Under the pieces are notes generated by a model. It was not told where the DNA came from. It searched no databases and worked only from the letters and a program-made list of their open reading frames with translations. This document shows positions 815 to 61,680 of a stretch of 64,000 nt of DNA, one piece after another. Numbering within the stretch: position 1 is the first letter of the stretch; each line of letters starts with the position of its first letter. The position numbers were made by a program, and so were the translations under genes. The stretch lies in sequence record PV805632.1, one strand, 5' to 3'. This DNA comes from a phage.

Positions 815-1867
815 ATGGCGAGCATTGACTCCTTGACTGTATGTAATACACGTCAAGCCCGTAACTTTATTATCCGTGCCTTGCAAGCAGGTAACGTACC
901 GTTCCTGACTTCATCACCGGGTATGGGTAAGTCTGCAATTATTCGTTCTATTGCAGAAGAATTTGGTATGAAGCTGATTGACCATCGTCTGTCTACTTCT
1001 GCCCCGGAAGACTTATCTGGTCTACCATTCCGTAATGGTGACCGTGCAGAGTTTATTCCATTTGCTGACTTATTCCCTATCGAGGGTGACGAAGTACCAG
1101 AAGGCTATAATGGCTGGCTCCTGTTCCTTGATGAGTTCAACTCAGCTAAAAAAGAAGTAGTAGCTGCTGCATACAAACTGATTCTAGACCGTATGACCGG
1201 GCAGAAAAAACTTCACCCTAATGTGATGATTATCTGTGCCGGTAATAAAGCTACTGACCGTGCTATCGTTAACCCACTGGGTACTGCAATGCAGTCTCGC
1301 GTTGTCCACTTCGAAATGGAACTTAACTTCGACATTTTTGTTGAAGACGTAATGATTCCTCAAGAATGGGATGAGCGTCTGGTTGCATTCTTACATGCTA
1401 ACCCTGGTTATCTGCACGACTTCGACCCTGCCCATAAGAACAAAACATTCTGTTGTCCACGTACCTGGGACTTTGTTAACAAAGACCTCAAGAACCGACC
1501 AGAAGGTGCTTTGCCTGATGAAGATTCTATCTACTATGCAGGCCACGTTACTGCTGGTAAGGCTACAGAGTTTGTTCAGTTCACTCAGGTATACAATCGT
1601 ATGATTACGATTGATAAGGTAGTCAAAGACCCTTTGGGCTGTGCACTACCAGAGGATAATAACCTGTGCTGGGCTACCGTTAACCACCTGGCTAACAAGA
1701 CCACTGAAGATAACTTCGTTGATGTACTTAAGTACATTGAACGCTTTAAAACGTTCACCCATAAGATTCTGTACTTCCGTACAGCAGGCAAAGCATTACC
1801 AGAAATTCAGGCTACCCCTGAATGGCGTAAAGCTGCTGCCAATATATCTCGTTACATTCACGGATAA
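815..1867 (+). CDS. AAA+ ATPase, MoxR-like
   Basis: Walker A SPGMGKSA, Walker B LLFLDEFN, sensor-1 ICAGN; AGGAGAG RBS upstream of ATG. Confidence 0.8.
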   Translation: MASIDSLTVCNTRQARNFIIRALQAGNVPFLTSSPGMGKSAIIRSIAEEFGMKLIDHRLSTSAPEDLSGLPFRNGDRAEFIPFADLFPIEGDEVPEGYNGWLLFLDEFNSAKKEVVAAAYKLILDRMTGQKKLHPNVMIICAGNKATDRAIVNPLGTAMQSRVVHFEMELNFDIFVEDVMIPQEWDERLVAFLHANPGYLHDFDPAHKNKTFCCPRTWDFVNKDLKNRPEGALPDEDSIYYAGHVTAGKATEFVQFTQVYNRMITIDKVVKDPLGCALPEDNNLCWATVNHLANKTTEDNFVDVLKYIERFKTFTHKILYFRTAGKALPEIQATPEWRKAAANISRYIHG

Positions 1868-1874
1868 TCACAAC

Positions 1875-3050
1875 ATGAACCAGATACCTCAGCACACACT
1901 TAGTGATGAACAACTCATGCGTGAGTATGACCGTATTCAGGCGCAGGCATTTCTTGGACGCAGTGCAGCGTTTTTTGGTTCATTGCTGTGTAGTCTTAAG
2001 TTCTCATGGAAACGTGAGGGCTGTCCCACTGCATGTACCGATGGGATAGAACTCCATTTCAACCCAGACTTCTTTATCTGGATGTGCCCTGATGCAAGAG
2101 AAACGGTGCTAATGCACGAACTCTGGCATGTGGCATACCTACATGGCATCCGTTGTGGAAGCCGTGACCCAGAAGTCTGGAACCAGGCATGTGACCACTT
2201 CATTAACCTTCAGTTAGAGGAAGATGGTTACAAGTTCACTGGTATCGACGAAGGCATTTGCAAAGACCCTCAATATAAAGGATGGGTCGAAGAAGACATC
2301 TACGATGACCTGATGAAGAACCCTCAGAAAAGGCAGAAGCCGTCAGGGGGTGCTGGAGCAGGTCTTGCTGGCGACATGAAAGCTCCCTCTTCGGGGCAGT
2401 CCCAGGGTGCTGTTGTCAACAACGTAGTACGTGCAATGCAAAGCCAGAAGATGGCTGGTGGAATGATGCCCGGTAAAGGTGCTGGTCGTATGGAAGAGGT
2501 TATTACCCAATTCCTTAAACCAGTGGTTCCTTGGCAGGAAGTCCTGCTGAACTTCTTTACCGACATTGATGGTACACACTATACGTGGGCCAGACCTAAC
2601 CGTCGTTTCACTGACGTCTATCTACCTTCTCTGGAAGATGATGAAGGACGCTTACGACACTTAGCCTACTTTGAGGATGTATCTGGTTCTATTAGTAGTG
2701 CTGACTCTCTGCGTTTTAACTCAGAGGTTGCCTACGTTAAGAGCCAGTTCAATCCTAAGAAGATGACCCTAATTACCTTCGACGATATTATCCAAGAAGA
2801 AATAGACATCACTGAAGAAGATACTTTTGAAGAGATTAAGATTACTGGTCGTGGTGGTACAAACCTTGAACCAGTGCGTGAATGGATCATTAAGAATAAG
2901 CCAACCGCTGCAATCATATTCTCCGATATGTATGTTCGTCCTATGGAAGAATTGCCATTTGATATCCCTATCATCTGGTGTGTTCTGAATAATCCTAATG
3001 CTACCGTACCTTTTGGGGAGGTAGTTCATATCCCTAAAGGAATGAAATAA
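1875..3050 (+). CDS. VWA-domain protein (MIDAS motif) with HExxH-like motif, partner of the MoxR-like ATPase
   Basis: MIDAS-like DVSGSIS, HELWH motif; ATG at 1875 chosen because the track start at 1641 overlaps the upstream gene; ATPase-VWA pairing is a known arrangement. Confidence 0.65.
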   Translation: MNQIPQHTLSDEQLMREYDRIQAQAFLGRSAAFFGSLLCSLKFSWKREGCPTACTDGIELHFNPDFFIWMCPDARETVLMHELWHVAYLHGIRCGSRDPEVWNQACDHFINLQLEEDGYKFTGIDEGICKDPQYKGWVEEDIYDDLMKNPQKRQKPSGGAGAGLAGDMKAPSSGQSQGAVVNNVVRAMQSQKMAGGMMPGKGAGRMEEVITQFLKPVVPWQEVLLNFFTDIDGTHYTWARPNRRFTDVYLPSLEDDEGRLRHLAYFEDVSGSISSADSLRFNSEVAYVKSQFNPKKMTLITFDDIIQEEIDITEEDTFEEIKITGRGGTNLEPVREWIIKNKPTAAIIFSDMYVRPMEELPFDIPIIWCVLNNPNATVPFGEVVHIPKGMK

Positions 3051-3556
3051 TGATTGTTAATGGTAATTCTCTATACCGTTCATCTCAATTGCTGGATGTC
3101 CCAGACCGTAAGGTATCCGAGCATGGTGTAAGCTATGGATTAGGCGAAGCTGGTTATGATATTCGTATCAAACAAGACATTACCTTCTATCGCTTATTTG
3201 GGTTAATTCCAATGGTGAAAATCGTTGATGGAAAACAAGTATCACGCCATCTCGGTAAATTCGCATTGGCTTCAGCAATTGAGAAATTCAACATGTCTCC
3301 GTCCTGTGTAGCTATCGTTCACGATAAGTCCACATGGGCAAGACGTGCATTATCTGTGTTCAATACCGTAATAGAACCAGGATGGAAAGGGTATCTTACC
3401 CTCGAACTGGTCTATCATGGTCGTAAGAAACTGCATATCCCGGCTGGTGCTGGGATAGCTCAAGTATTATTTCATCTGGTTCAAGAGCCTGCTAATTACA
3501 ACGGCAAGTATCAGAACCAGGAGGACAAACCAGTAGCTGCAAGAAGCAGTAAATAA
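3050..3556 (+). CDS. dcd: dCTP deaminase (dUTPase-superfamily fold)
   Basis: 168 aa; start overlaps upstream stop (TAATG); sequence resembles dCTP deaminase family from memory. Confidence 0.7.
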   Translation: MIVNGNSLYRSSQLLDVPDRKVSEHGVSYGLGEAGYDIRIKQDITFYRLFGLIPMVKIVDGKQVSRHLGKFALASAIEKFNMSPSCVAIVHDKSTWARRALSVFNTVIEPGWKGYLTLELVYHGRKKLHIPAGAGIAQVLFHLVQEPANYNGKYQNQEDKPVAARSSK

Positions 3557-3565
3557 GGAAACAAC

Positions 3566-3766
3566 ATGTCAGTATTTCAAGTAACTCCTGTTGACAGTAC
3601 CCAACGTAAAACTATTGTTGCAACTAACGTAGTAGATGTAGATGAAACTCCGGCTGGTGCTGTAGTTCATCTGATTGATGGGCGAACTGTAACTGTAAAA
3701 GAAAGCTATCGTTCAGTACGTGGTTACGTCCGTAAAGCTTTAACTGCTGACTCTGACGCAGAGTAA
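3566..3766 (+). CDS. hypothetical protein
   Basis: 66-aa ORF with GGAAACAAC-ATG context; followed by palindromic terminator. Confidence 0.45.
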   Translation: MSVFQVTPVDSTQRKTIVATNVVDVDETPAGAVVHLIDGRTVTVKESYRSVRGYVRKALTADSDAE

Positions 3767-3776
3767 GTAGCTGCCT

Positions 3777-3803
3777 AAATAGCCCAGCATAGCTGGGCTA
3801 TTT
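3777..3803. terminator. palindromic hairpin terminator (9-bp GC-rich stem, 3-nt loop, AAA/TTT flanks)
   Basis: TAGCCCAGC-ATA-GCTGGGCTA at 3780-3800 flanked by AAA and TTT. Confidence 0.5.
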
Positions 3804-3839
3804 GTGAAGAAACTAACTCAACCCCACATAGGAACCATC

Positions 3840-4100
3840 ATGGAATCTTTAGCAGCAATTCTCGTTCTGTTATTTGCACTTGCTATATACCTTATCCCTA
3901 CTATTATTGCTTTTGCACGAGGCCATGCCTCTAAGTGGGGCATTGGTGTACTCAATATCGTATTAGGCTGGTCTTTAGTCTTCTGGGTAGTAGCACTGAT
4001 TTGGTCACTGTCTAATAAAGGACAGTCTCAGACTACAATCGTTAACGTTGGTAGTGGTAACCAGTACAACGTGTCTCAAACGAGCCAGTCTGATAAGTAA
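3840..4100 (+). CDS. small two-TM membrane protein, superinfection-immunity (Imm)-like
   Basis: IYLIPTIIAFARGH...LNIVLGWSLVFWVVALIWSL resembles the Imm_superinfect family motif as I recall it; AGGA RBS 7 nt before ATG 3840; the GTG at 3804 lies inside the terminator. Confidence 0.5.
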   Translation: MESLAAILVLLFALAIYLIPTIIAFARGHASKWGIGVLNIVLGWSLVFWVVALIWSLSNKGQSQTTIVNVGSGNQYNVSQTSQSDK

Positions 4101-4174
4101 CTAACTTAAGCATCATTGTATAGTGGTGCTTGTGGAAGTTGCTTCCAGCTCATTACTTATCCATCTCCTAATCC

Positions 4175-4201
4175 AAGCCCACCTAACCCGTGGGCTTTTT
4201 T
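4175..4201 (+). terminator. rho-independent terminator
   Basis: AGCCCAC-CTAACCC-GTGGGCT followed by TTTTTT. Confidence 0.6.
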
Positions 4202-4222
4202 AATTACAGGTAGTAAATACTA

Positions 4223-4666
4223 ATGCGTATCCCATTCCTAAGAAAAAGGGAACGAAATCCTGTTCTTTATAATAAAGGCATAGAGGATGAGTACGAACTC
4301 AACCGTAAAGCTCGTTCCTACGCAACAAAATTATTCATGGGGACTAGCAACCCTAATAGATTACTGGACTTTGTTTTCGAACAAGTCTTTATCATATACA
4401 GCTTAGCTATGTCTGCTGGTTCACAAGAAGTAAGTGATAAGGCAAGATATGCTCTCTGTATGCTCCGGAAAGAGTACGAAGCCATCCTGTATGAAGACTT
4501 GTACTCCTTTAAGAAAGAAACCGCTGTAGCGTGTTCTGTGGCTCTTACTGAAGGTATAGCAGTATTACAAGAACTGCCCCGTAGTGAGTTTAAACTGGTA
4601 TATGTCCAGGCCAGGAGAATTACAGAAAACCGTAGTGGTATTACCAACTATCTAAGGTCATTCTAA
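4223..4666 (+). CDS. hypothetical protein
   Basis: 147-aa ORF; stop overlaps thyX start (TAATG). Confidence 0.5.
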   Translation: MRIPFLRKRERNPVLYNKGIEDEYELNRKARSYATKLFMGTSNPNRLLDFVFEQVFIIYSLAMSAGSQEVSDKARYALCMLRKEYEAILYEDLYSFKKETAVACSVALTEGIAVLQELPRSEFKLVYVQARRITENRSGITNYLRSF

Positions 4667-5610
4667 TGATTAAGGCAACTGTCATTGCAGATTCCGTTCA
4701 TCATGTAACGGGTACTCGTATTACTACCTTTGAATTGGTTTATCCTCGATTCATTCACAGTGAGTTTATGACCCACCGTGTATTCAACCGCAATGCTTCA
4801 AGTAGTCGTGCTATCCCTACTTCTAAGTTTATTGAACAGGTTCGTAATGAACCAGTAATGCCAAGTCACTGGGGCAAGAACCAGAAAGGTATGCAGGCAT
4901 TTGAAGAATTGTCTGAAGACCAACGTAGTGATGCAACCTTTATCTGGGAACAGGCTGCATCCAGTGCTGCTACCTATGCAGAAATGCTACGTCGTGGACA
5001 AGTACATAAGCAGATTGTTAACCGCATTCTGGAACCATTCACACATATCCGTGTAGTGGTAACTTCAACTAGCTGGGCTAACTTCTACGGCTTACGTGAC
5101 CATGAGGATGCCCAACCAGAAATTCGTTTACTGGCTCAGGCCATGAAGAAAGCTCATGAAGAATCTGTTCCGCAAAAGCTCAAGAAAGGTGACTGGCATC
5201 TGCCTTATATTCGCAGGATTGATTGTATTAACGCTTACGATCATTGCAAATATCAACGAGTTACTTGTGATAAACCAAGTGATGAAGAAGTTTTAGGCTT
5301 ACTGCTTAAAGTCTCTGCTGCTCGTTGTGCTCGTGCCTCCTATAACAACTTTGAAGGCAAGCCATCTACTATTAGTGATGACCTTGCTCTCTTTGCTAAG
5401 TTGGTAGAGAAACAACCAATACATGCATCACCTACTGAGCATCAAGCTACCCCTATGGACTTCAGTACCAAGTTTGTTAACAACCAGAACCCATTAACCT
5501 GGGAACAAGGTGTTACCTCTATGGACCGTGAAGGTAAGCTGTATTCTGGTAACTTAATGGATTTCATCCAATTCCGTAAACTAATCCCCGGAGAAACAAT
5601 TACAGAATGA
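4666..5610 (+). CDS. thyX: FAD-dependent thymidylate synthase ThyX
   Basis: ThyX signature RHRVFNRNASSSR (RHRxxxxxxxSxR) at residues about 37-49; 314 aa. Confidence 0.85.
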   Translation: MIKATVIADSVHHVTGTRITTFELVYPRFIHSEFMTHRVFNRNASSSRAIPTSKFIEQVRNEPVMPSHWGKNQKGMQAFEELSEDQRSDATFIWEQAASSAATYAEMLRRGQVHKQIVNRILEPFTHIRVVVTSTSWANFYGLRDHEDAQPEIRLLAQAMKKAHEESVPQKLKKGDWHLPYIRRIDCINAYDHCKYQRVTCDKPSDEEVLGLLLKVSAARCARASYNNFEGKPSTISDDLALFAKLVEKQPIHASPTEHQATPMDFSTKFVNNQNPLTWEQGVTSMDREGKLYSGNLMDFIQFRKLIPGETITE

Positions 5611-5847: not shown

Positions 5848-5874
5848 AAGACCTCCTCCGGGAGGTCTTTTTTT
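5848..5874 (+). terminator. rho-independent terminator
   Basis: AAGACCTCC-TCCG-GGAGGTCTT followed by TTTTTTT. Confidence 0.65.
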
Positions 5875-6789: not shown

Positions 6790-9354
6790 ATGTTAGTCGC
6801 AGATACCAATCAATCAGCCACTTCAGCGACACTGGGTGGCAAAGAAGCAATCGCTTTTGCCATCTCAGATGACCCGGCATTCTTTCATGTATTAAGTACC
6901 TCCTTGTATAACAACCCTACTCTGGCAGTAGTCCGTGAGACTATCTGTAACAGTTGGGATGCTCATATTGAAGCAGGTAAGACTGATACTCCTATCCGTA
7001 TTACTATTGATACAGACAATTTTATTACCTTCCGTGACTTCGGTAATGGGATACCAGATGAACTCATTGGTTCCATTTACGGTGTCTATGGTGCATCTAC
7101 CAAGAAGTCCAACAGTAGTGTTACTGGTGGCTTTGGTCTGGGATGTAAATCCCCATTCGCTTATACAGATAGTTTCCAGGTTACTTCATGGAACCAGGGA
7201 AAGATGTCGGTATATAACGTAGCTAAGGCTGCAATTGAGAATGATGGTAAACCGGGTATTGTCCCTATTGTTACTGGTATTCCTACTGAAGAATCCGGTC
7301 TGGAAGTTAAATTCCAACTGGGTAAGCATGATGTAAATACCTTTGTACATTACATCACATCAATTGTATTTAACGGCGAGATTAAGGCTGAGCTTAATAT
7401 TCCTAAACTTGTTCGTGAAGAAACGGGTAATAGTATTCAGCAAGGTAACTACACTCTACTGAATACTCTAGGTATGTCATTTGAACCTGGTTCATATGAT
7501 ATGTCTGATAGATGGTATCAAGGCTATATGGGTAACAGCACCATCTTTGTTCGCTACGGTAACGTAATGTACCCAATAGTATCTAGTCCGGCTAGTGAAG
7601 AGGCTGTAGGTCTTATTCTCAACTTCATGAATATCATTGGAGCTGATAATTTAGTAGTTCAGGCTGCACCGGATACCTTAGCTATTGCCCCTAGTCGTGA
7701 AACTCTGTCTAACCAGAAGTTAACCGACGATGGTATTACTACTCTATGCGTAAATTTAGTAGATCGTATGGAGAAAGAAATTAAGGCTAAGATTCCTGAA
7801 GCTATTAAGCAGATTGAAGAATATGCCTCCAAATCTTCTACTCGCTACTGGGAATACCCATCTTTCATTCTTGCTGTTACAGATGAGATTGTTAGACGCT
7901 ATATGTCCTCTAGCTTGTGGGCTAAGCAACGTAAGCATCATATTAAGCACTGGCGTAATCTATCTAATAAGGCATTACTAGCTCGCCCTGAATATGCAGG
8001 TCTTAAAAGACTGTATGGTAAGGCTATGCGTGCTCTTAAGGATACCCGTGAAGATAGTACCAACCATTCTTTCCAGGATTTGGTATATCGTCATCTGCAC
8101 CTACCTCAGCTTGCTGCTTTAAAAGCTACAGGTATTAAGTGGTCTGGTTACATAATGAACCAAGGTAACTGTGTTGACTTAGTGAAGGGTAAACTTACTG
8201 ACTACTTTAAGATGGGTTATAACTCCCACCTAGGTATTGGTATTTTCACTACCAGGAACGTTGTAGTTACCCGACGTTTATCTGACTGTGCAGACTCTTT
8301 CTCATACTTCCCAGAGTACATCCAAGGTGACCTGGAGCGAACAGCTTTTGTTCACGTCGTTGGTCCTAAGAAAGGGGAAGCAGAGAAAGCTGTAGCTAAG
8401 TTCACTGCTATGGGTTATCGGGTTATTGACCTTACTCAATATAATGAGTGGGACAGGCCAACTAACTTCCGCAGGGAACAGGCTAAGATAGCTGCTGAGA
8501 AGCGGGCTAAGACAATAGCTGCCAATAAAACCAAAGCAGGTGGTAAAACTAATGCACTGGTTTCATTGAATGCAGTACTTGGTACTTCCCCTGTACGAGA
8601 TAAAAATGGAGATTTGGTATCTAAACCACACATTGACAAGGATTTTGCTGACCCAAGATTCCATGAGGAACCTAGATTCGTTGAGGTGGATCTGCCTAAG
8701 TACTACGTACCAGCCAGTCAGGTTGTTTCTGGTAGACCAGAAACTGCCAAGATTGGAACCATGTGGAAATGGTGGGAGTTGTCTGATGAGATGAAGGCAG
8801 AGACTGTTGTCTGTCGTAATCAAATCGAAGTTAACAAAGCCAAACGACGTGGTGCTATTCATATTGATGATGTTCGTTTTAACGAACTGATGTCCGTCAT
8901 TACCAGTAAAGGATTCAAGAAATATGCTACTGAACAGCGTATCGGTGTTCTTGAGTATCTTGATTTAAATGACAAAGAGTACTGTGAAATCCTCGACATT
9001 CTTGGACTAACATTCAAACCATTACAGAGTCTGGTTCTTAAACCAGAGTATGAATGGGCATGTAACTTCCTAAGAAATCATTCGAGTAACAAAGATAAAC
9101 TGGTTGAGAAGGGCCTCATTAAGTCAGTAGATGACTTGGAACCATATGTAAAGATGGTTAATCCTCGTATGCATAAGCATTTCGAAGTACTTAACGAGTA
9201 CAAAGGGTTATTTAGATATAGCTGGGCTAAAAATGACATCCTACAGACGCTAGACTTAGGTAGTTTAGTTAAACACCTCAAGAAGAATCCAGAGGATATC
9301 CCTGGGTTTAAGTCCCTCTACCGTAATCGTCTAAATAAACTGAAAGGTAAATAA
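6790..9354 (+). CDS. rIIA: rIIA-like protein (GHKL/HATPase-like N-terminal region)
   Basis: 854 aa; GHKL-type motifs NSWDAH, DFGNGIP, GGFGLG near N-terminus; GGAGAG RBS; adjacent to rIIB-like ORF. Confidence 0.7.
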   Translation: MLVADTNQSATSATLGGKEAIAFAISDDPAFFHVLSTSLYNNPTLAVVRETICNSWDAHIEAGKTDTPIRITIDTDNFITFRDFGNGIPDELIGSIYGVYGASTKKSNSSVTGGFGLGCKSPFAYTDSFQVTSWNQGKMSVYNVAKAAIENDGKPGIVPIVTGIPTEESGLEVKFQLGKHDVNTFVHYITSIVFNGEIKAELNIPKLVREETGNSIQQGNYTLLNTLGMSFEPGSYDMSDRWYQGYMGNSTIFVRYGNVMYPIVSSPASEEAVGLILNFMNIIGADNLVVQAAPDTLAIAPSRETLSNQKLTDDGITTLCVNLVDRMEKEIKAKIPEAIKQIEEYASKSSTRYWEYPSFILAVTDEIVRRYMSSSLWAKQRKHHIKHWRNLSNKALLARPEYAGLKRLYGKAMRALKDTREDSTNHSFQDLVYRHLHLPQLAALKATGIKWSGYIMNQGNCVDLVKGKLTDYFKMGYNSHLGIGIFTTRNVVVTRRLSDCADSFSYFPEYIQGDLERTAFVHVVGPKKGEAEKAVAKFTAMGYRVIDLTQYNEWDRPTNFRREQAKIAAEKRAKTIAANKTKAGGKTNALVSLNAVLGTSPVRDKNGDLVSKPHIDKDFADPRFHEEPRFVEVDLPKYYVPASQVVSGRPETAKIGTMWKWWELSDEMKAETVVCRNQIEVNKAKRRGAIHIDDVRFNELMSVITSKGFKKYATEQRIGVLEYLDLNDKEYCEILDILGLTFKPLQSLVLKPEYEWACNFLRNHSSNKDKLVEKGLIKSVDDLEPYVKMVNPRMHKHFEVLNEYKGLFRYSWAKNDILQTLDLGSLVKHLKKNPEDIPGFKSLYRNRLNKLKGK

Positions 9355-9358
9355 TCTG

Positions 9359-10462
9359 ATGAAAATCGAACTGATTTCTATCATCGCACTGGCAGTTGAC
9401 AGTCGAAACCTCACACTGTGGAAGCCTGATGGCTCCACGGTTGTATACCCTCAGAGCGACCCACGGGTTGCTCGTATTGTATCTGAAGCACAGACTAAAG
9501 GTCTGGGCACTACCCAGGATCAAATAGAAGTAAACATTGCACCAGAAGTAGAACTTCGTACTGAATACCTGGAAGCAGAGAAGAACACCAACGGATTCGT
9601 TCGTTTCTTTAAGGTAGCTAAAGCTAAACTCAAAGAGTTCTTCGAAGATGGTACAGGTGTTTCACCAGCCCGTACCGTTTCAGATATTAAGCTGGGTAAT
9701 CCTACTAAGACACTAGTGTCTAAAGCTATGGATACTTTTCTGGCTGTCCAGGCTAATGAACCAGAAGTAACGGTAGCAGATGGTTACTACGACAAACGTG
9801 ACAATCTGATGTGGGTTACCGGTTGGGATAAAGACCATAACCATCTTGCACTGGTTCGTTTTATTGACTACGTACTTTGTTGGAGTCATAAGCATACTGA
9901 TCATATTCTTGCACAGGAGTGGCCTATTGCAATTCGTGCAGTATCTGATGATGAAATGGGTGAGTTTGCTAAACAAGCCCAATACATCAAAGGTGTACAC
10001 ATTGTATTTACCAACCGTGGAGAAACACCACTGCCTTACGTGGAAGTAGCTAAAACCTCGAACCAGGATAAGCTGGCTGCTGCTTCAGAGAAACTGGCTG
10101 CATTAGGTGCTATCAGTACTGATGACACTAACTTCCATACTGATGTGAAGGAAGATGAAGTGGTTGTTGCTGTTACCAACAATGGGGTTATCCCTGGGGT
10201 TGAGAACCTGCAACGCCACCTGCGTCAGTCTGCCAAGCTGAAAGACTATAAGGGCTTTACTAAGTTCCTTGAGCGTCTGGCTCCGGTTATTAAAGACCGT
10301 CTGCACTCAGTGGAAGACCTGATGAAGTTCATGGAAACTGCTGAACTGCCTATCGCTGATGATGGCTCTATCCTGTTCCTGAAACGACTTAAGTTCAGAG
10401 GTGAAGAAATGGTAAGCGTGTATTCGTTGACTGTCACTCAGGCAACATTCGTCAGTGGGTAG
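9359..10462 (+). CDS. rIIB: rIIB-like protein, N-terminal segment (possibly a frameshifted single gene with 10543..11403)
   Basis: 367-aa ORF immediately after rIIA; the next frame is open from 10405 and the two ORFs together give about 680 aa; assignment by position and size only. Confidence 0.45.
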   Translation: MKIELISIIALAVDSRNLTLWKPDGSTVVYPQSDPRVARIVSEAQTKGLGTTQDQIEVNIAPEVELRTEYLEAEKNTNGFVRFFKVAKAKLKEFFEDGTGVSPARTVSDIKLGNPTKTLVSKAMDTFLAVQANEPEVTVADGYYDKRDNLMWVTGWDKDHNHLALVRFIDYVLCWSHKHTDHILAQEWPIAIRAVSDDEMGEFAKQAQYIKGVHIVFTNRGETPLPYVEVAKTSNQDKLAAASEKLAALGAISTDDTNFHTDVKEDEVVVAVTNNGVIPGVENLQRHLRQSAKLKDYKGFTKFLERLAPVIKDRLHSVEDLMKFMETAELPIADDGSILFLKRLKFRGEEMVSVYSLTVTQATFVSG

Positions 10463-23467: not shown

Positions 23468-24525
23468 TATCGTGAAGGGTTCTGTCAGAATCCTTTGAGA
23501 TAGGAACTCCTATCATAACCTTTCTTAACTTAATCTTTGCCGTATGGCACTGACGCTAGGGGTGGCCCCCCATCCGTCAGACAGACTATTTTAAGAATAG
23601 GTTATCTCAGAAAATGTAAAGCAACATTCGGGTTAATCAATGGCCTCTTCTATAGGGGCCATTTCTGAATCTTAGGCTATATCCCAAAGGTTAGTATCTT
23701 TGGGATAAGGCTTCAGATCCCTTATCAAACTAACTGCTCAATGTTGAGTATATTAACTAACCAAGCCCAGTAAGGGGGCGGGAGTTTAATGCCGGTAAGC
23801 ATAAGCCTATCCGTCTACGACATCGAACTGTTAGATCTTACGTGCAACATAGGGTAATGGGAGGATTCGTCCCCTCCCACCTATTATGAACCAATTCGAA
23901 GTAGCACTGATTGATTAGCTGTGGAAGGTAGGCCGATGTCCACAAGCATGGCCCAGAATCAGTGCTACCCCTAATTGGAAGAATTAAGACGGGTCTGGTG
24001 AAGTAGATGGGGTTCGATTCCCTCCGGTGGAGTAATCCACTAGCGTGCTTGGTGCACGAATAAGACTTAGTACTGGTGGTTCGATTCCATCCCCCGTTAC
24101 CCGAAGTCGCCAGGTACTTATGGCAAACAACGAGGTAGTAACGAACTAGTCATTCGTCAAACGCCTCACCTAATTATGAGTCAGCAAGAACGCCTTCACC
24201 TAAACTTAAACAAAAAAGCTTAACGCAATAATTATGTAGGGGTATGTAAGGATTGCGAAGAAGGAGCCAGTTAGAGCCTGGTATGACTCACCTATTTAGC
24301 AGTAACATAGTCCTGATTGCATAGCACTCTAAAGACAACACTGGTAAGACAGTCCAGTGGCTGCTAATGTATAGTTATTCCCCTCGACGGGAATTTCGCT
24401 AGTGAAGGTAACACTTAAAAATCCAAACCTACGTCTTACTACTATCGGGCTATCAACCCACGGTCGCTTAACCCACTGGTGGTAGCAGTTTGACGGCCTG
24501 CCTCGTTGACTGCGTTAAAGTCACT
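23468..24525. other. ORF-free, highly structured non-coding region (candidate ncRNA / degenerate tRNA-like / origin region)
   Basis: no ORF of 60 aa or more on either strand; many perfect inverted repeats; two GGTTCGATTCC motifs; see findings. Confidence 0.5.
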
Positions 24526-24870: not shown

Positions 24871-24947
24871 CAAACAAGTGTAAGGTAGTTTTTACCGAAA
24901 GGTACTGAACTACTTACGTAGTGAGGCTGTAATAGCCAAAACAAAGA

Positions 24948-24969
24948 AAGCCCCTCATTTGAGGGGCTT
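24948..24969. terminator. bidirectional hairpin terminator between plus- and minus-strand blocks
   Basis: AAGCCCCTCA-TT-TGAGGGGCTT with T-rich flanks on both strands. Confidence 0.6.
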
Positions 24970-24975
24970 TCTTAT

Positions 24976-25578
24976 TTATACAGGATTTACTGTTTGAAAT
25001 ACCCTGACAGATACCTTAGTGAGTGTAATAGTTTGTCCACTAACGTTATGCATACCTAATTGTATGCCATTGACCATAAATGGGTCAGTGCTGCCCATGG
25101 TATATGTTGCAAGGTTTACTTCCTCGTTGCTTATATCATTACCCTGGAATTTAGAACTAAAAGCAGAACCCCTTATAGTTGTTCCATTGGGTCGTCTTGT
25201 TTGTGTTCTCCACTCTCTAACTGTCCCATCATCCCCGGCAATACTACCAGTAATCCGTACTACGAAAATTACTTGTGTATTGCCTTCTCTAGCAGGGAAG
25301 AGTAGATTGTTATCTAATATAGTAGTACCAGCAGTTCCTGCCGGATCCTTAGTTAAGCCTTCCAAACTAAAATAATTGAACCAGCTTGTATCAGTGATTG
25401 TCTGGCTTCCAGCCCAATCCCATATATCTAATAAAAAAGGATTTGGCAATTCTTTTGCCAAATCCTCGTCCGTTTTGGATGCAAGTATGCTTTTCCCCTT
25501 GTCTCCGATAAGGGTCATTCCACCCATAACCAAAGGCATTGCATCAAAACCCTGATCGTATTTGTCTTTAATGGTCAT
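24976..25578 (-). CDS. hypothetical protein
   Basis: about 200 aa from the internal Met (MTIKDKYDQ); the first Met of the track ORF lies inside the upstream terminator hairpin. Confidence 0.45.
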   Translation of the reverse strand: MTIKDKYDQGFDAMPLVMGGMTLIGDKGKSILASKTDEDLAKELPNPFLLDIWDWAGSQTITDTSWFNYFSLEGLTKDPAGTAGTTILDNNLLFPAREGNTQVIFVVRITGSIAGDDGTVREWRTQTRRPNGTTIRGSAFSSKFQGNDISNEEVNLATYTMGSTDPFMVNGIQLGMHNVSGQTITLTKVSVRVFQTVNPV

Positions 25579-61653: not shown

Positions 61654-61680
61654 AATAGGAGGCTCTTCGAGCCTCCTATT
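61654..61680. promoter_or_regulatory. perfect 12-bp stem / 3-nt loop hairpin (terminator or hairpin-type promoter)
   Basis: AATAGGAGGCTC-TTC-GAGCCTCCTATT immediately after a stop codon; no U-tract. Confidence 0.5.

What the first reader, a model, noticed from the sequence alone, without database searches (positions are those of the whole stretch)
3777..4201. Terminator-flanked cassette encoding a superinfection-immunity-like membrane protein
A small two-TM protein (3840..4100) resembling the Imm superinfection-immunity family (from memory) is bracketed by a palindromic hairpin (3777-3803) and a strong terminator (4175-4201), unlike the surrounding tightly overlapping genes. This resembles an independently regulated, moron-like insert that could exclude superinfecting phage.
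Basis: partly seen in the sequence, partly recalled or inferred. Interest (0 to 1): 0.4.

Follow-up and report, generated by a model that had tools for sequence, protein, structure and literature searches.

The report
Known Imm superinfection-exclusion gene in N4-like phage
This is the already-annotated homologue of the phage T4 "Imm" membrane protein, which stops a second phage from delivering its DNA, sitting as a dispensable ~330-bp insert in an N4-like coliphage; it is real but ordinary.

Summary
The window is a close relative of coliphage vB_EcoP_G7C (Gamaleyavirus, N4-like). ORF 3840-4100 is the ortholog (98.8% identical) of G7C gp27.1, annotated "putative membrane immunity protein". It matches Pfam PF14373 Imm_superinfect over the full profile (61.7 bits, cut-off 27.9) and aligns directly to T4 Imm (33% identity). 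It keeps the two residues a 2026 preprint found T4 Imm needs for exclusion (R33/W50 = R27/W44 here). dN/dS is 0.07-0.39.

The gene is accessory. About 55 Gamaleyavirus records, Moo19 and more distant N4-like contigs carry it in the same slot. N4, phi G17, Moonfish and Jgk1 have a clean empty site.

Both bracketing hairpins are also present in the empty sites, N4 included, so they belong to the backbone and were not brought by the cassette. The insert (leader with ribosome-binding site, imm, and a stem-loop of its own) lies between two diverged copies of a ~50-nt "stop codon-hairpin-TTGTGGAAG" module. Moo19 has a perfect 16-nt direct repeat at the junctions.

No promoter of its own was found, and base composition matches the neighbours. 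The exclusion function is inferred and untested. What the protein targets is open, because this podovirus has no tape measure protein, which is T4 Imm's reported target. Already known; low interest.

The parts
3566..3766 (+). gp27 ortholog (66 aa), the upstream neighbour. Its stop codon begins the left copy of the repeated module.
   Evidence: PHROG 7594, 8e-31. 38% identical to N4 gp27. This is the divergent 'window-type' allele; phi G17 and Moonfish carry an N4-type allele instead.
3777..3803 (+). hp1: perfect 12-bp stem with 3-nt loop, followed by TTTGTG. A backbone element, present in occupied and empty sites alike. Either a terminator-like element or a hairpin-promoter-like element.
   Evidence: Covariation. 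Present in N4, phi G17, Moonfish and Jgk1. The core 7 bp are annotated 'stem_loop' in the G7C record.
3807..4131 (+). The ~325-bp insert relative to empty sites: leader with ribosome-binding site, imm, and hp2. The boundaries are ambiguous within the repeated TTGTG(G)AAG.
   Evidence: Comparison of empty and occupied sites. Perfect 16-nt direct repeat TTGTGGAAGTTCCTTC spaced 324 nt apart in Moo19.
3830..3833 (+). Shine-Dalgarno AGGA, 6 nt before the ATG.
   Evidence: Read from the sequence. The ribosome-binding region is unpaired in the fold of 3767-3839.
3840..4100 (+). imm: 86-aa PF14373 / T4 Imm homologue, ortholog of G7C gp27.1. Pfam domain at residues 16-57. The polar C-terminal tail (64-86) is variable.
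4107..4132 (+). hp2: 11-bp stem-loop (3 G-U pairs) starting 7 nt after the imm stop codon. It is the only hairpin that belongs to the insert, and it is a diverged copy of hp1.
   Evidence: Folds. Present with four different sequences in all occupied genomes. Module similarity to hp1: 36-39 identities over ~58 nt, with 0-5 of 500 shuffles reaching the score in five of six genomes (21 of 500 in L021).
4133..4147 (+). hp3: TGGAAGTTGCTTCCA, 6-bp stem with 3-nt loop. A near-invariant backbone motif that directly follows hp1 in empty sites.
   Evidence: The motif is not enriched elsewhere in the window.
4148..4174 (+). Conserved non-coding spacer (..CATTaCTTATCC..) between hp3 and the terminator.
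   Evidence: Invariant and near-invariant columns shared with N4. The ORF 4116-4223 that overlaps it is not frame-conserved, because 1-2-nt gaps occur between lineages.
4175..4203 (+). Intrinsic-terminator-like hairpin AAGCCCAC-CTAACCC-GTGGGCTT plus T6. A backbone element shared with N4.
   Evidence: Annotated as a terminator in the PhAPEC7, PhAPEC5 and SP5M records.
4223..4666 (+). gp29 ortholog, the downstream neighbour. The N4 gp28 homologue that most relatives have between the terminator and gp29 is missing here.
   Evidence: PHROG 9867..

Best explanation
ORF 3840-4100 is the Gamaleyavirus ortholog of G7C gp27.1, a homologue of the phage T4 Imm protein.

Shown here:
- It is a real gene under purifying selection. 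It encodes an ~86-aa protein with two hydrophobic helices joined by a basic RGH..K loop.
- It is a full-length member of Pfam PF14373. It keeps the Arg and Trp that a 2026 preprint found necessary for T4 Imm activity.
- It occupies a fixed slot (dCTP deaminase - gp27 - imm - [gp28] - gp29 - ThyX) in many N4-like phages. It is cleanly absent from that slot in others, so it is dispensable for lytic growth.
- It lies between two diverged copies of a 'stop codon-hairpin-TTGTGGAAG' module. Upstream hp1, hp3 and the terminator belong to the phage backbone.

Inferred:
- The gene is transcribed rightward with the middle-gene block (phage RNAPII in N4). This would be by read-through of hp1, or from a start just after hp1, ending at hp2 and/or the conserved terminator.
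- The protein inserts into the inner membrane of the infected cell with its N-terminus outside.
- There it blocks genome translocation of a later-arriving phage, as T4 Imm does by binding the incoming phage's tape measure protein.
- The short repeats flanking the gene provide the homology through which the gene is lost or swapped between co-infecting relatives.
For: Family:
- PF14373 at E = 5.8e-17, 61.7 bits against a cut-off of 27.9, profile positions 1-42 of 42.
- PHROG 1039 at 1.3e-33.
- BLASTP to T4 Imm: 33% identity over 69 aa, E = 1e-10. T4 Imm itself hits the same Pfam model.
- R27 is invariant and W44 nearly invariant among 16 homologues. They align to T4 R33 and W50, whose mutation lowers exclusion (bioRxiv 10.64898/2026.03.06.709160).

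Identity: 97.6% nucleotide and 98.8% protein identity to G7C gp27.1.

Real gene: dN/dS is 0.07-0.39 over 32 pairs.

Membrane hairpin.

Accessory status:
- Occupied in about 55 Gamaleyavirus records and Moo19 and in distant N4-like contigs with 62-70% identical Imm.
- Empty in phi G17, Moonfish, Jgk1 and N4.
- No PF14373-like ORF anywhere in N4: best E = 0.82 in a six-frame search.

Backbone nature of hp1, hp3 and the terminator.

Repeat modules.

Against: - No experiment on any N4-like Imm was found in the literature searched.
- T4 Imm is reported to act by binding a tape measure protein. This podovirus has none. So if the gene excludes its own kind, the target must be different.
- No promoter was identified. 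Sigma-70-like sites are not enriched (18 found against 25.8 expected), and the motif that follows the hairpins does not recur elsewhere in the window.
- The structure model is of low confidence (pLDDT 66).
- PADLOC and NCBIfam give no match.
- PF14373 is widespread on plasmids and in bacterial genomes, where its role is untested.
Confidence: 0.7

Rival explanations
1. The gene is ancestral to the Enquatrovirinae rather than an insertion. It would have been lost independently in the N4 lineage, in Jgk1 and in phi G17/Moonfish, by recombination between the flanking repeats or by replacement of the whole module.
For: - The same slot is occupied in many divergent N4-like lineages, with Imm identity falling to 62-70% and dS saturated.
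- GC and GC3 are indistinguishable from the neighbours.
- Empty sites carry exactly one copy of the repeat, as a deletion between direct repeats would leave.
- phi G17 and Moonfish have swapped the whole gp27-hp1 module for an N4-type allele. Their loss is therefore secondary, by recombination.
Against: - N4 has the intact hp1-hp3-terminator arrangement with no remnant of the gene. N4 is the most distant relative compared here (gp29 35% identical).
- The gene sits between duplicated copies of a backbone module, which looks like an insertion or duplication scar.
- The closest relatives of the protein outside N4-like phages are in unrelated myoviruses (Acinetobacter AP22-like, 62-64% identical over aa 20-75). 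That implies horizontal transfer at some point.
Confidence: 0.35
2. hp1 is not a terminator but a hairpin-type middle promoter, like those mapped in the N4-like Pseudomonas phage LUZ7. imm would then be an autonomous transcription unit, running from a start at about G3804-G3806 to hp2 or the terminator.
For: - LUZ7 middle promoters are GC-rich hairpins with a stem of at least 6 bp and a 3-4-nt loop, about 15 nt upstream of a G start (PMC9163698).
- hp1 has a GC-rich 7-bp core, a 3-nt loop centred at 3790, and G residues 14 and 16 nt downstream.
- Its structure is maintained by covariation.
- Its 3' flank (UAUUUGUG) is a poor U-tract, and the terminator scan did not call it.
Against: - In N4, the closer relative, RNAPII promoters are described as short AT-rich sequences spanning -7 to +2 that start at T, not as hairpins.
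- In empty sites hp1 is followed within about 70 nt by the terminator, so as a promoter it would make only a tiny RNA.
- hp1 sits directly after the gp27 stop codon, like the other G7C 'stem_loop' features, two of which have clear T-runs.
Confidence: 0.3
3. The protein is a membrane protein of the Imm fold but does something other than superinfection exclusion. Examples would be tuning lysis timing or lysis inhibition, protecting the infected cell's inner membrane from the phage's own ejection proteins, or countering a host defence.
For: - The reported T4 target, a tape measure protein, does not exist in this phage (podovirus taxonomy).
- PF14373 proteins are common on plasmids and in bacteria, with no tested function.
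- N4, which lacks imm, shows lysis inhibition, while G7C, which has it, reportedly does not (PMC12642591). This is a correlation between two phages only.
Against: - The core motif, including the two residues needed for T4 exclusion, is strictly conserved.
- The only experimentally studied member of the family is an exclusion protein.
- The gene is dispensable and patchily distributed, as competition genes typically are.
Confidence: 0.2

Closest known systems
Escherichia phage vB_EcoP_G7C gp27.1 (AEL79635.1), 'putative membrane immunity protein'; named 'immunity to superinfection' in RefSeq NC_015933
   Same: It is the same gene in the same slot, 98.8% identical in protein. The same upstream stem-loop is annotated in that record.
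   Different: The window is not G7C itself. It lacks G7C's gp24.1 HNH endonuclease. hp1 is perfect here, whereas G7C has an A·C mismatch and the loop TAT instead of ATA.
Phage T4 Imm (NP_049660, 83 aa; Pfam PF14373)
   Same: Both are small inner-membrane proteins with a full-length PF14373 domain. They are 33% identical, and R33 and W50 are conserved. T4 Imm blocks genome translocation of superinfecting T-even phage by binding the tape measure protein gp29.
   Different: T4 is a myovirus and its Imm targets its own kind of tape measure protein. The phage here is a podovirus without one, so the target is unknown. The C-terminal tail is unrelated. T4 imm is an early gene read by host RNA polymerase. 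This gene sits in the block that N4 transcribes with its own RNAPII (inference).
HK97 gp15 (superinfection exclusion protein acting on the tape measure protein)
   Same: It is proposed to use the same strategy: a small prophage- or phage-encoded inner-membrane protein that stops genome translocation (cited).
   Different: No sequence relationship was tested or claimed. It is a functional analogue only.
PeSL cassettes of T4-type phages (composite promoter-terminator stem-loops that flank variable ORFs; PMC2839356, PMC4122927)
   Same: An accessory ORF is bracketed by repeated short stem-loop modules, and indels and module swaps between close relatives occur exactly at those repeats.
   Different: Here the module is repeated only at this one locus. 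No promoter activity is known for it, and the sequence is unrelated to PeSLs.
Morons of lambdoid phages
   Same: It is an extra, dispensable gene lying between two backbone genes, with hairpins on both sides.
   Different: No promoter of its own was identified. The downstream terminator and upstream hairpin pre-exist in the backbone. Base composition is not foreign. The phage is virulent, so any benefit comes during lytic infection and not to a lysogen.

Membership tests
Pfam PF14373 Imm_superinfect / T4 Imm family | Match to the family HMM above the curated gathering score, covering the whole domain | tested here: met
   61.7 bits against 27.9, E = 5.8e-17, profile 1-42 of 42 at residues 16-57. 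PHROG 1039 at 1.3e-33.
Pfam PF14373 Imm_superinfect / T4 Imm family | Direct pairwise similarity to the founding member, T4 Imm | tested here: met
   33% identity and 57% positives over 69 aa, E = 1e-10. T4 Imm hits the same model at 58.2 bits.
Pfam PF14373 Imm_superinfect / T4 Imm family | Small (~80-90 aa) protein with two hydrophobic membrane helices around a short basic loop | tested here: met
   86 aa. Hydrophobic segments at about 1-29 and 33-59, with the loop RGHASKW carrying +2 charge. AlphaFold2 helices at 2-26 and 30-63, at pLDDT 66 only.
Pfam PF14373 Imm_superinfect / T4 Imm family | Conservation of the residues shown to matter for T4 exclusion (R33, W50) | tested here: met
   R27 and W44 align to them without gaps. 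R27 is invariant and W44 is at least 90% conserved in 16 homologues. The functional data come from a preprint.
Pfam PF14373 Imm_superinfect / T4 Imm family | Blocks DNA entry of superinfecting phage (exclusion phenotype) | not testable with these tools
   This needs plating-efficiency and DNA-entry assays. No published test for any N4-like Imm was found.
Pfam PF14373 Imm_superinfect / T4 Imm family | Binds the tape measure protein of the excluded phage | not testable with these tools
   Reported for T4 only. The host phage here is a podovirus, so the partner, if any, is unknown.
Moron (autonomous accessory gene inserted between backbone genes) | Present or absent at one precise site among otherwise collinear relatives | tested here: met
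   Occupied in about 55 Gamaleyavirus records, Moo19 and L018-L023. Empty in phi G17, Moonfish, Jgk1 and N4. The junctions lie at the repeated TTGTG(G)AAG.
Moron (autonomous accessory gene inserted between backbone genes) | Carries its own promoter and terminator | tested here: inconclusive
   The terminator and hp1 are backbone elements, also present in empty sites. The insert brings only hp2, which has no U-tract. No promoter was found. hp1 does fit the geometry of LUZ7-type hairpin promoters.
Moron (autonomous accessory gene inserted between backbone genes) | Base composition different from the surrounding genome | tested here: not met
   Insert GC is 0.412 against 0.405-0.428 for the neighbours. 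GC3 is 0.379 against 0.349-0.378 for gp26, gp29 and thyX.
PeSL-like mobile regulatory cassette | The same short stem-loop module repeated on both sides of variable ORFs | tested here: met
   The gp27-stop/hp1 and imm-stop/hp2 modules align with 30-39 identities over ~58 nt, and 0-5 of 500 shuffles reach the score in five of six genomes (21 of 500 in L021). Perfect 16-nt repeat in Moo19.
PeSL-like mobile regulatory cassette | The module recurs at many variable loci of the genome and contains a promoter | tested here: not met
   TTGTGGAAGTT has one exact copy in 64 kb. With 2 mismatches there are 38 hits against 24.8 ± 4.8 expected, none in comparable contexts. Promoter activity is unknown.

The most novel reading that the evidence does not exclude
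T4 Imm is now reported to work by binding the tape measure protein of the incoming phage. N4-like podoviruses have no such protein. So the conserved Imm of Gamaleyavirus and its relatives may be a cross-family weapon that shuts out long-tailed competitors (T-even-like, Chaseviridae, T1-like/Drexlerviridae-type siphoviruses) from a cell the podovirus has already taken. Alternatively, it may have been retargeted to the N4-type ejectosome (the vRNAP and its two companion ejection proteins). In addition, the duplicated stop-hairpin-TTGTGGAAG modules may work as a PeSL-like recombination device in the Schitoviridae.
Probability: 0.3. Interest if true: 0.55.

Novelty: already known. Interest (0 to 1): 0.22.

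Why it matters
As it stands, this confirms an existing annotation. Two small points go beyond the records.

(1) The "terminator-flanked cassette" is really a ~325-bp insert inside an older hairpin-hairpin-terminator intergenic region that N4 also has. It lies between two copies of a short stem-loop module, and natural empty sites exist. That gives a clean, ready-made pair of imm+ and imm- relatives (G7C-like against phi G17/Moonfish) for testing superinfection exclusion in N4-like phages. No exclusion system has been characterised in that group (PMC12642591).

(2) T4 Imm has recently been reported to act on the tape measure protein. Finding a well-conserved homologue in a phage family without one raises a testable question about its target, and about competition between phage families in the gut.

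Tried and rejected
- Not a spurious ORF. dN/dS of 0.07-0.39 and strict motif conservation reject that.
- The alternative GTG start at 3804 (98-aa ORF) is rejected. It lies in the 3' edge of hp1, all homologues start with ME.. after an AGGA/GGAG site, and the upstream sequence is not conserved as coding.
- The ORF 4116-4223 (35 aa) overlapping the 3' region is rejected. Frame-breaking 1-2-nt gaps occur between lineages.
- No Rfam family matches 3300-4700. The only hit is a sub-threshold Trp_leader match at E = 0.78.
- No solved structure of a relative was found by sequence. The only hit is a designed repeat protein matching low-complexity sequence. I did not run a fold search, because the model is a low-confidence two-helix hairpin that would match anything helical.
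- PADLOC and NCBIfam give no match.
- I tested TTGTGGAAGTT as a genome-wide promoter motif. It is not convincingly enriched.
- I looked for a donor in E. coli chromosomes and prophages. There is no DNA match in 5,426 complete genomes. Plasmid homologues are only 38-52% identical.
- hp1 as an N4 virion-RNAP early promoter was considered and set aside. The 3-nt loop with a purine at its centre on the template strand fits. But those promoters are confined to the left genome end and have 5-7-bp stems with conserved sequence, and the predicted +1 would be a T at 3801.
- G7C-focused papers held in the library (10.1101/542787, PMC11640937, PMC7650795) say nothing about this gene.

Full report
**What the window is.** Bases 3000-5000 are 97.6% identical to Escherichia phage vB_EcoP_G7C (Schitoviridae, Enquatrovirinae, Gamaleyavirus), and 63 phage records match. 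The local gene order is that of G7C and N4:
- gp24 (815-1867)
- gp25 (1875-3050)
- dCTP deaminase gp26 (3050-3556)
- gp27 (3566-3766)
- the ORF in question (3840-4100)
- gp29 (4223-4666)
- ThyX gp30 (4666-5610)

These assignments rest.

**Checking the observation.**
- The ORF encodes 86 aa and has a good ribosome-binding site (AGGA, 6 nt, ATG).
- It has two hydrophobic segments separated by the basic loop RGHASKW.
- An AlphaFold2 model built on 16 sequences gives two long helices (2-26, 30-63) and a disordered tail. Mean pLDDT is only 66, so I use it for secondary structure only.
- The hairpin 3777-3803 is a perfect 12-bp stem with a 3-nt loop (-21.9 kcal/mol, z = -4.8, 0 of 200 shuffles).
- It is one of five distinct perfect hairpins with a stem of 10 bp or more in 64 kb.
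- The terminator 4175-4197 plus T6 is a moderate intrinsic terminator (-12.5 kcal/mol).
- The simple scan finds about as many such sites as chance would give (10 against 8.5). The case for this one therefore rests on conservation, described below.
- The spacing contrast is real. The gaps are 73 and 122 nt around this ORF, against -8 to +29 nt at the other eleven junctions nearby.

**What the protein is.**
- It matches Pfam PF14373 (Imm_superinfect) over the entire 42-position profile, at 61.7 bits against a gathering score of 27.9.
- It matches PHROG 1039 "immunity to superinfection" at 1.3e-33.
- T4 Imm, fetched from NC_000866, aligns directly: 33% identity over 69 aa, E = 1e-10. T4 Imm hits the same Pfam model.
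- The G7C record already calls the ortholog gp27.1 "putative membrane immunity protein". RefSeq calls it "immunity to superinfection".
- The gene is under purifying selection. Nei-Gojobori dN/dS is 0.07-0.39 over 32 pairs with dS > 0.15.
- A tblastn search finds the family in 453 phage records. Those listed include T4-like myoviruses, Acinetobacter AP22-like myoviruses (62-64% identical over the core) and ~46-kb enterobacterial phages, besides the N4-like group. A Chaseviridae myovirus, Mangalitsa, also carries it.

**How the founding member works.** A 2026 preprint (bioRxiv 10.64898/2026.03.06.709160) reports the following for T4 Imm:
- It co-purifies with, and binds, the helical-bundle domain of the tape measure protein gp29.
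- This blocks formation of the inner-membrane conduit for the genome.
- The R33A and W50A mutations reduce exclusion.

In the gap-free part of the alignment these residues are R27 and W44 of the window protein. R27 is invariant and W44 nearly invariant among 16 homologues. I therefore commit to the same kind of activity: an inner-membrane protein that stops genome translocation of a later-arriving phage. This is inference from homology. I found no experiment on any N4-like Imm. A recent N4 preprint states that no superinfection exclusion system has been characterised for N4 (PMC12642591).

**Is it an insert?** Yes, in the sense of a presence/absence polymorphism at a precise site.
- The cassette DNA (3767-4222) is found at 80% coverage or more in 55 records. 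These are mostly Gamaleyavirus, plus Moovirus Moo19.
- The flanking gp29 is found in 75 records.
- Four kinds of phage have the flanks but not the gene:
  - phi G17 and Moonfish (gp29 92.5% identical);
  - Jgk1 (53%);
  - N4 and its close relatives (35%).
- A six-frame HMM search of the whole N4 genome finds nothing (best E = 0.82), against 1.9e-43 for the single copy in the window.
- More distant N4-like metagenomic contigs, whose Imm is only 62-70% identical, carry it in exactly the same slot.
- The acquisition, if it was one, is therefore old. The insert's GC (0.412) and GC3 (0.379) are the same as its neighbours'.

**Anatomy of the site.** Reading empty and occupied sites side by side gives two layouts:
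- Empty site: gp27 stop - hp1 - TTGTGGAAGTTNCTTCC (hp3) - CATTGCTTATCC.. - GCCCAC..GTGGGC-T6 (terminator) - next gene.
- Occupied site: the same, with about 325 bp set in between hp1 and hp3. The extra piece is a 36-nt leader with the ribosome-binding site, imm, and a second stem-loop hp2 (4107-4132) that starts 7 nt after the stop codon.

- hp1 is maintained by compensatory change. 96.9% of cells pair, and 6 of 12 pairs have double changes. 0 of 500 shuffles reach this, and slid controls pair at 34-53%.
- N4 has a completely different stem sequence at the same place.
- The terminator stem, its T-run and the CATTGCTTA block are invariant from N4 to the window. The flanking proteins, by contrast, are only 35-38% identical.
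- hp2 is the only hairpin that travels with the gene. It exists in every occupied genome in four different sequence versions.

**The flanking repeats.**
- In Moo19 the insert is flanked by a perfect 16-nt direct repeat, TTGTGGAAGTTCCTTC, spaced 324 nt apart.
- In the window the left copy has decayed to TTGTGAAG.
- The similarity extends further. The module "gp27 stop-hp1-TTGTGAAG" and the module "imm stop-hp2-TTGTGGAAG" align with 30-39 identities over ~58 nt. 0-5 of 500 shuffles reach the observed score in five of six genomes, and 21 of 500 in the sixth.
- So imm sits between two diverged copies of one short stem-loop module.
- The motif is not repeated elsewhere in the window, so it is a local duplication and not a dispersed regulatory element.
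- phi G17 and Moonfish differ from typical Gamaleyaviruses not only in lacking imm. They also carry an N4-type gp27 allele (61-72% identical to N4 and Moo19, 39% to the window type). High similarity to the window resumes exactly at hp3. They therefore lost imm by module replacement through recombination.
- The closest described parallel is the PeSL stem-loop cassettes that flank variable ORFs and mediate indels in T4-type phages (PMC4122927). The present module occurs at one locus only and has no known promoter activity.

**Expression.** This part is inference.
- The gene lies on the rightward strand in the half of the genome that N4 transcribes with its own RNAPII (PMC4496689).
- No sigma-70-like site is enriched (18 against 25.8 expected). 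The best one (TTGACA-16-TATTGT, 3591-3618) lies inside gp27.
- hp1 could be a weak terminator or a 3'-end stabiliser for the gp24-gp27 transcript. Its 3' flank is UAUUUGUG, and G7C annotates four such stem-loops after genes.
- Alternatively hp1 could be a hairpin promoter of the kind mapped for middle genes of the N4-like phage LUZ7: a GC-rich stem of at least 6 bp, a 3-4-nt loop, and a G start about 15 nt downstream (PMC9163698). G3804 and G3806 lie 14 and 16 nt from the loop centre.
- N4's own middle promoters are described differently, as AT-rich sequences from -7 to +2 that start at T.
- Only transcript-end mapping can decide between these.

**Verdict.**
- One correction: the bracketing hairpins belong to the backbone, and autonomy of regulation is unproven.
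- The feature is already annotated in public records, so novelty is nil and interest low.
- One open point is worth a bench test. This phage family has no tape measure protein, which is the reported target of T4 Imm. Its well-conserved Imm must therefore either act on unrelated long-tailed competitors or have a different partner in the N4-type ejection machinery.

Noticed in passing
window 1867-1875 (compare L001 1400-1876): The window lacks the HNH homing endonuclease gp24.1 that G7C carries between gp24 and gp25. The window-to-G7C offset changes from 9046 to 9518 across this point, so the window is a G7C relative and not G7C itself.
   Followed up: partly
window 4204-4222; L002 2707-3087; L003 2725-3108: The N4 gp28 homologue (~380 nt) that PhAPEC7, E20, Jgk1 and the distant contigs have between the terminator and gp29 is missing in the window, G7C, phi G17 and Moonfish. 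This is a second indel right next to the imm site.
   Followed up: partly
window 4020-4100; L015 1740-1823; L002 2527-2589: The Imm C-terminal tail comes in two unrelated alleles within Gamaleyavirus: ..SQTTIVNVGSGNQYNVSQTSQSDK (86 aa) and ..NQVTNVTVVQTNGGSKAE (80 aa). Moo19 shares the first tail almost base for base although its N-terminal half is diverged, which suggests recombination inside the gene.
   Followed up: partly
window 4133-4210; L004 5070-5135: A ~75-nt non-coding block (hp3 GGAAGTTNCTTCC, CATTGCTTA, terminator stem GCCCAC/GTGGGC, T6AATTA) is nearly invariant from N4 to the window, while the flanking proteins are only 35-38% identical. In empty sites, hp1 plus this block would make a ~100-nt structured unit, possibly a small RNA or a regulatory leader. 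It has no Rfam match.
   Followed up: partly
window 3591-3618: The best sigma-70-like match in the first 12 kb (TTGACA, 16 nt, TATTGT; 10 of 12) lies inside gp27, about 220 nt upstream of imm. Such sites are not enriched overall, so it may be chance.
   Followed up: no
L024 7668-7982 (N4 gp18): The N4 RefSeq record annotates gp18 as 'superinfection exclusion, similar to P22 gp17'. G7C-like phages lack N4 gp18-gp23. The two genera may therefore carry different accessory competition genes in neighbouring slots.
   Followed up: no
window 5848-5869: A perfect 9-bp GC-rich palindromic hairpin (AAGACCTCC-TCCG-GGAGGTCTT) with a T-run lies after gp30.1. The scan calls it on both strands. PhAPEC7 annotates a terminator at the equivalent place.
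   Followed up: no
window 24944-24973, 25438-25466, 61654-61680, 23680-23707: These are the other four perfect hairpins with stems of 10-13 bp in the window. 61654-61680 (AATAGGAGGCTC-TTC-GAGCCTCCTATT) has the same 12-bp stem and 3-nt loop geometry, and the same AATAG..CTATT ends, as hp1.
   Followed up: no
L026 2471-2725 (Escherichia phage Mangalitsa, Chaseviridae): A PF14373 homologue in an unrelated myovirus also sits isolated between long intergenic gaps, a few kilobases upstream of that phage's flavin-dependent thymidylate synthase. It shares 68.5% DNA identity with the imm core.
   Followed up: no
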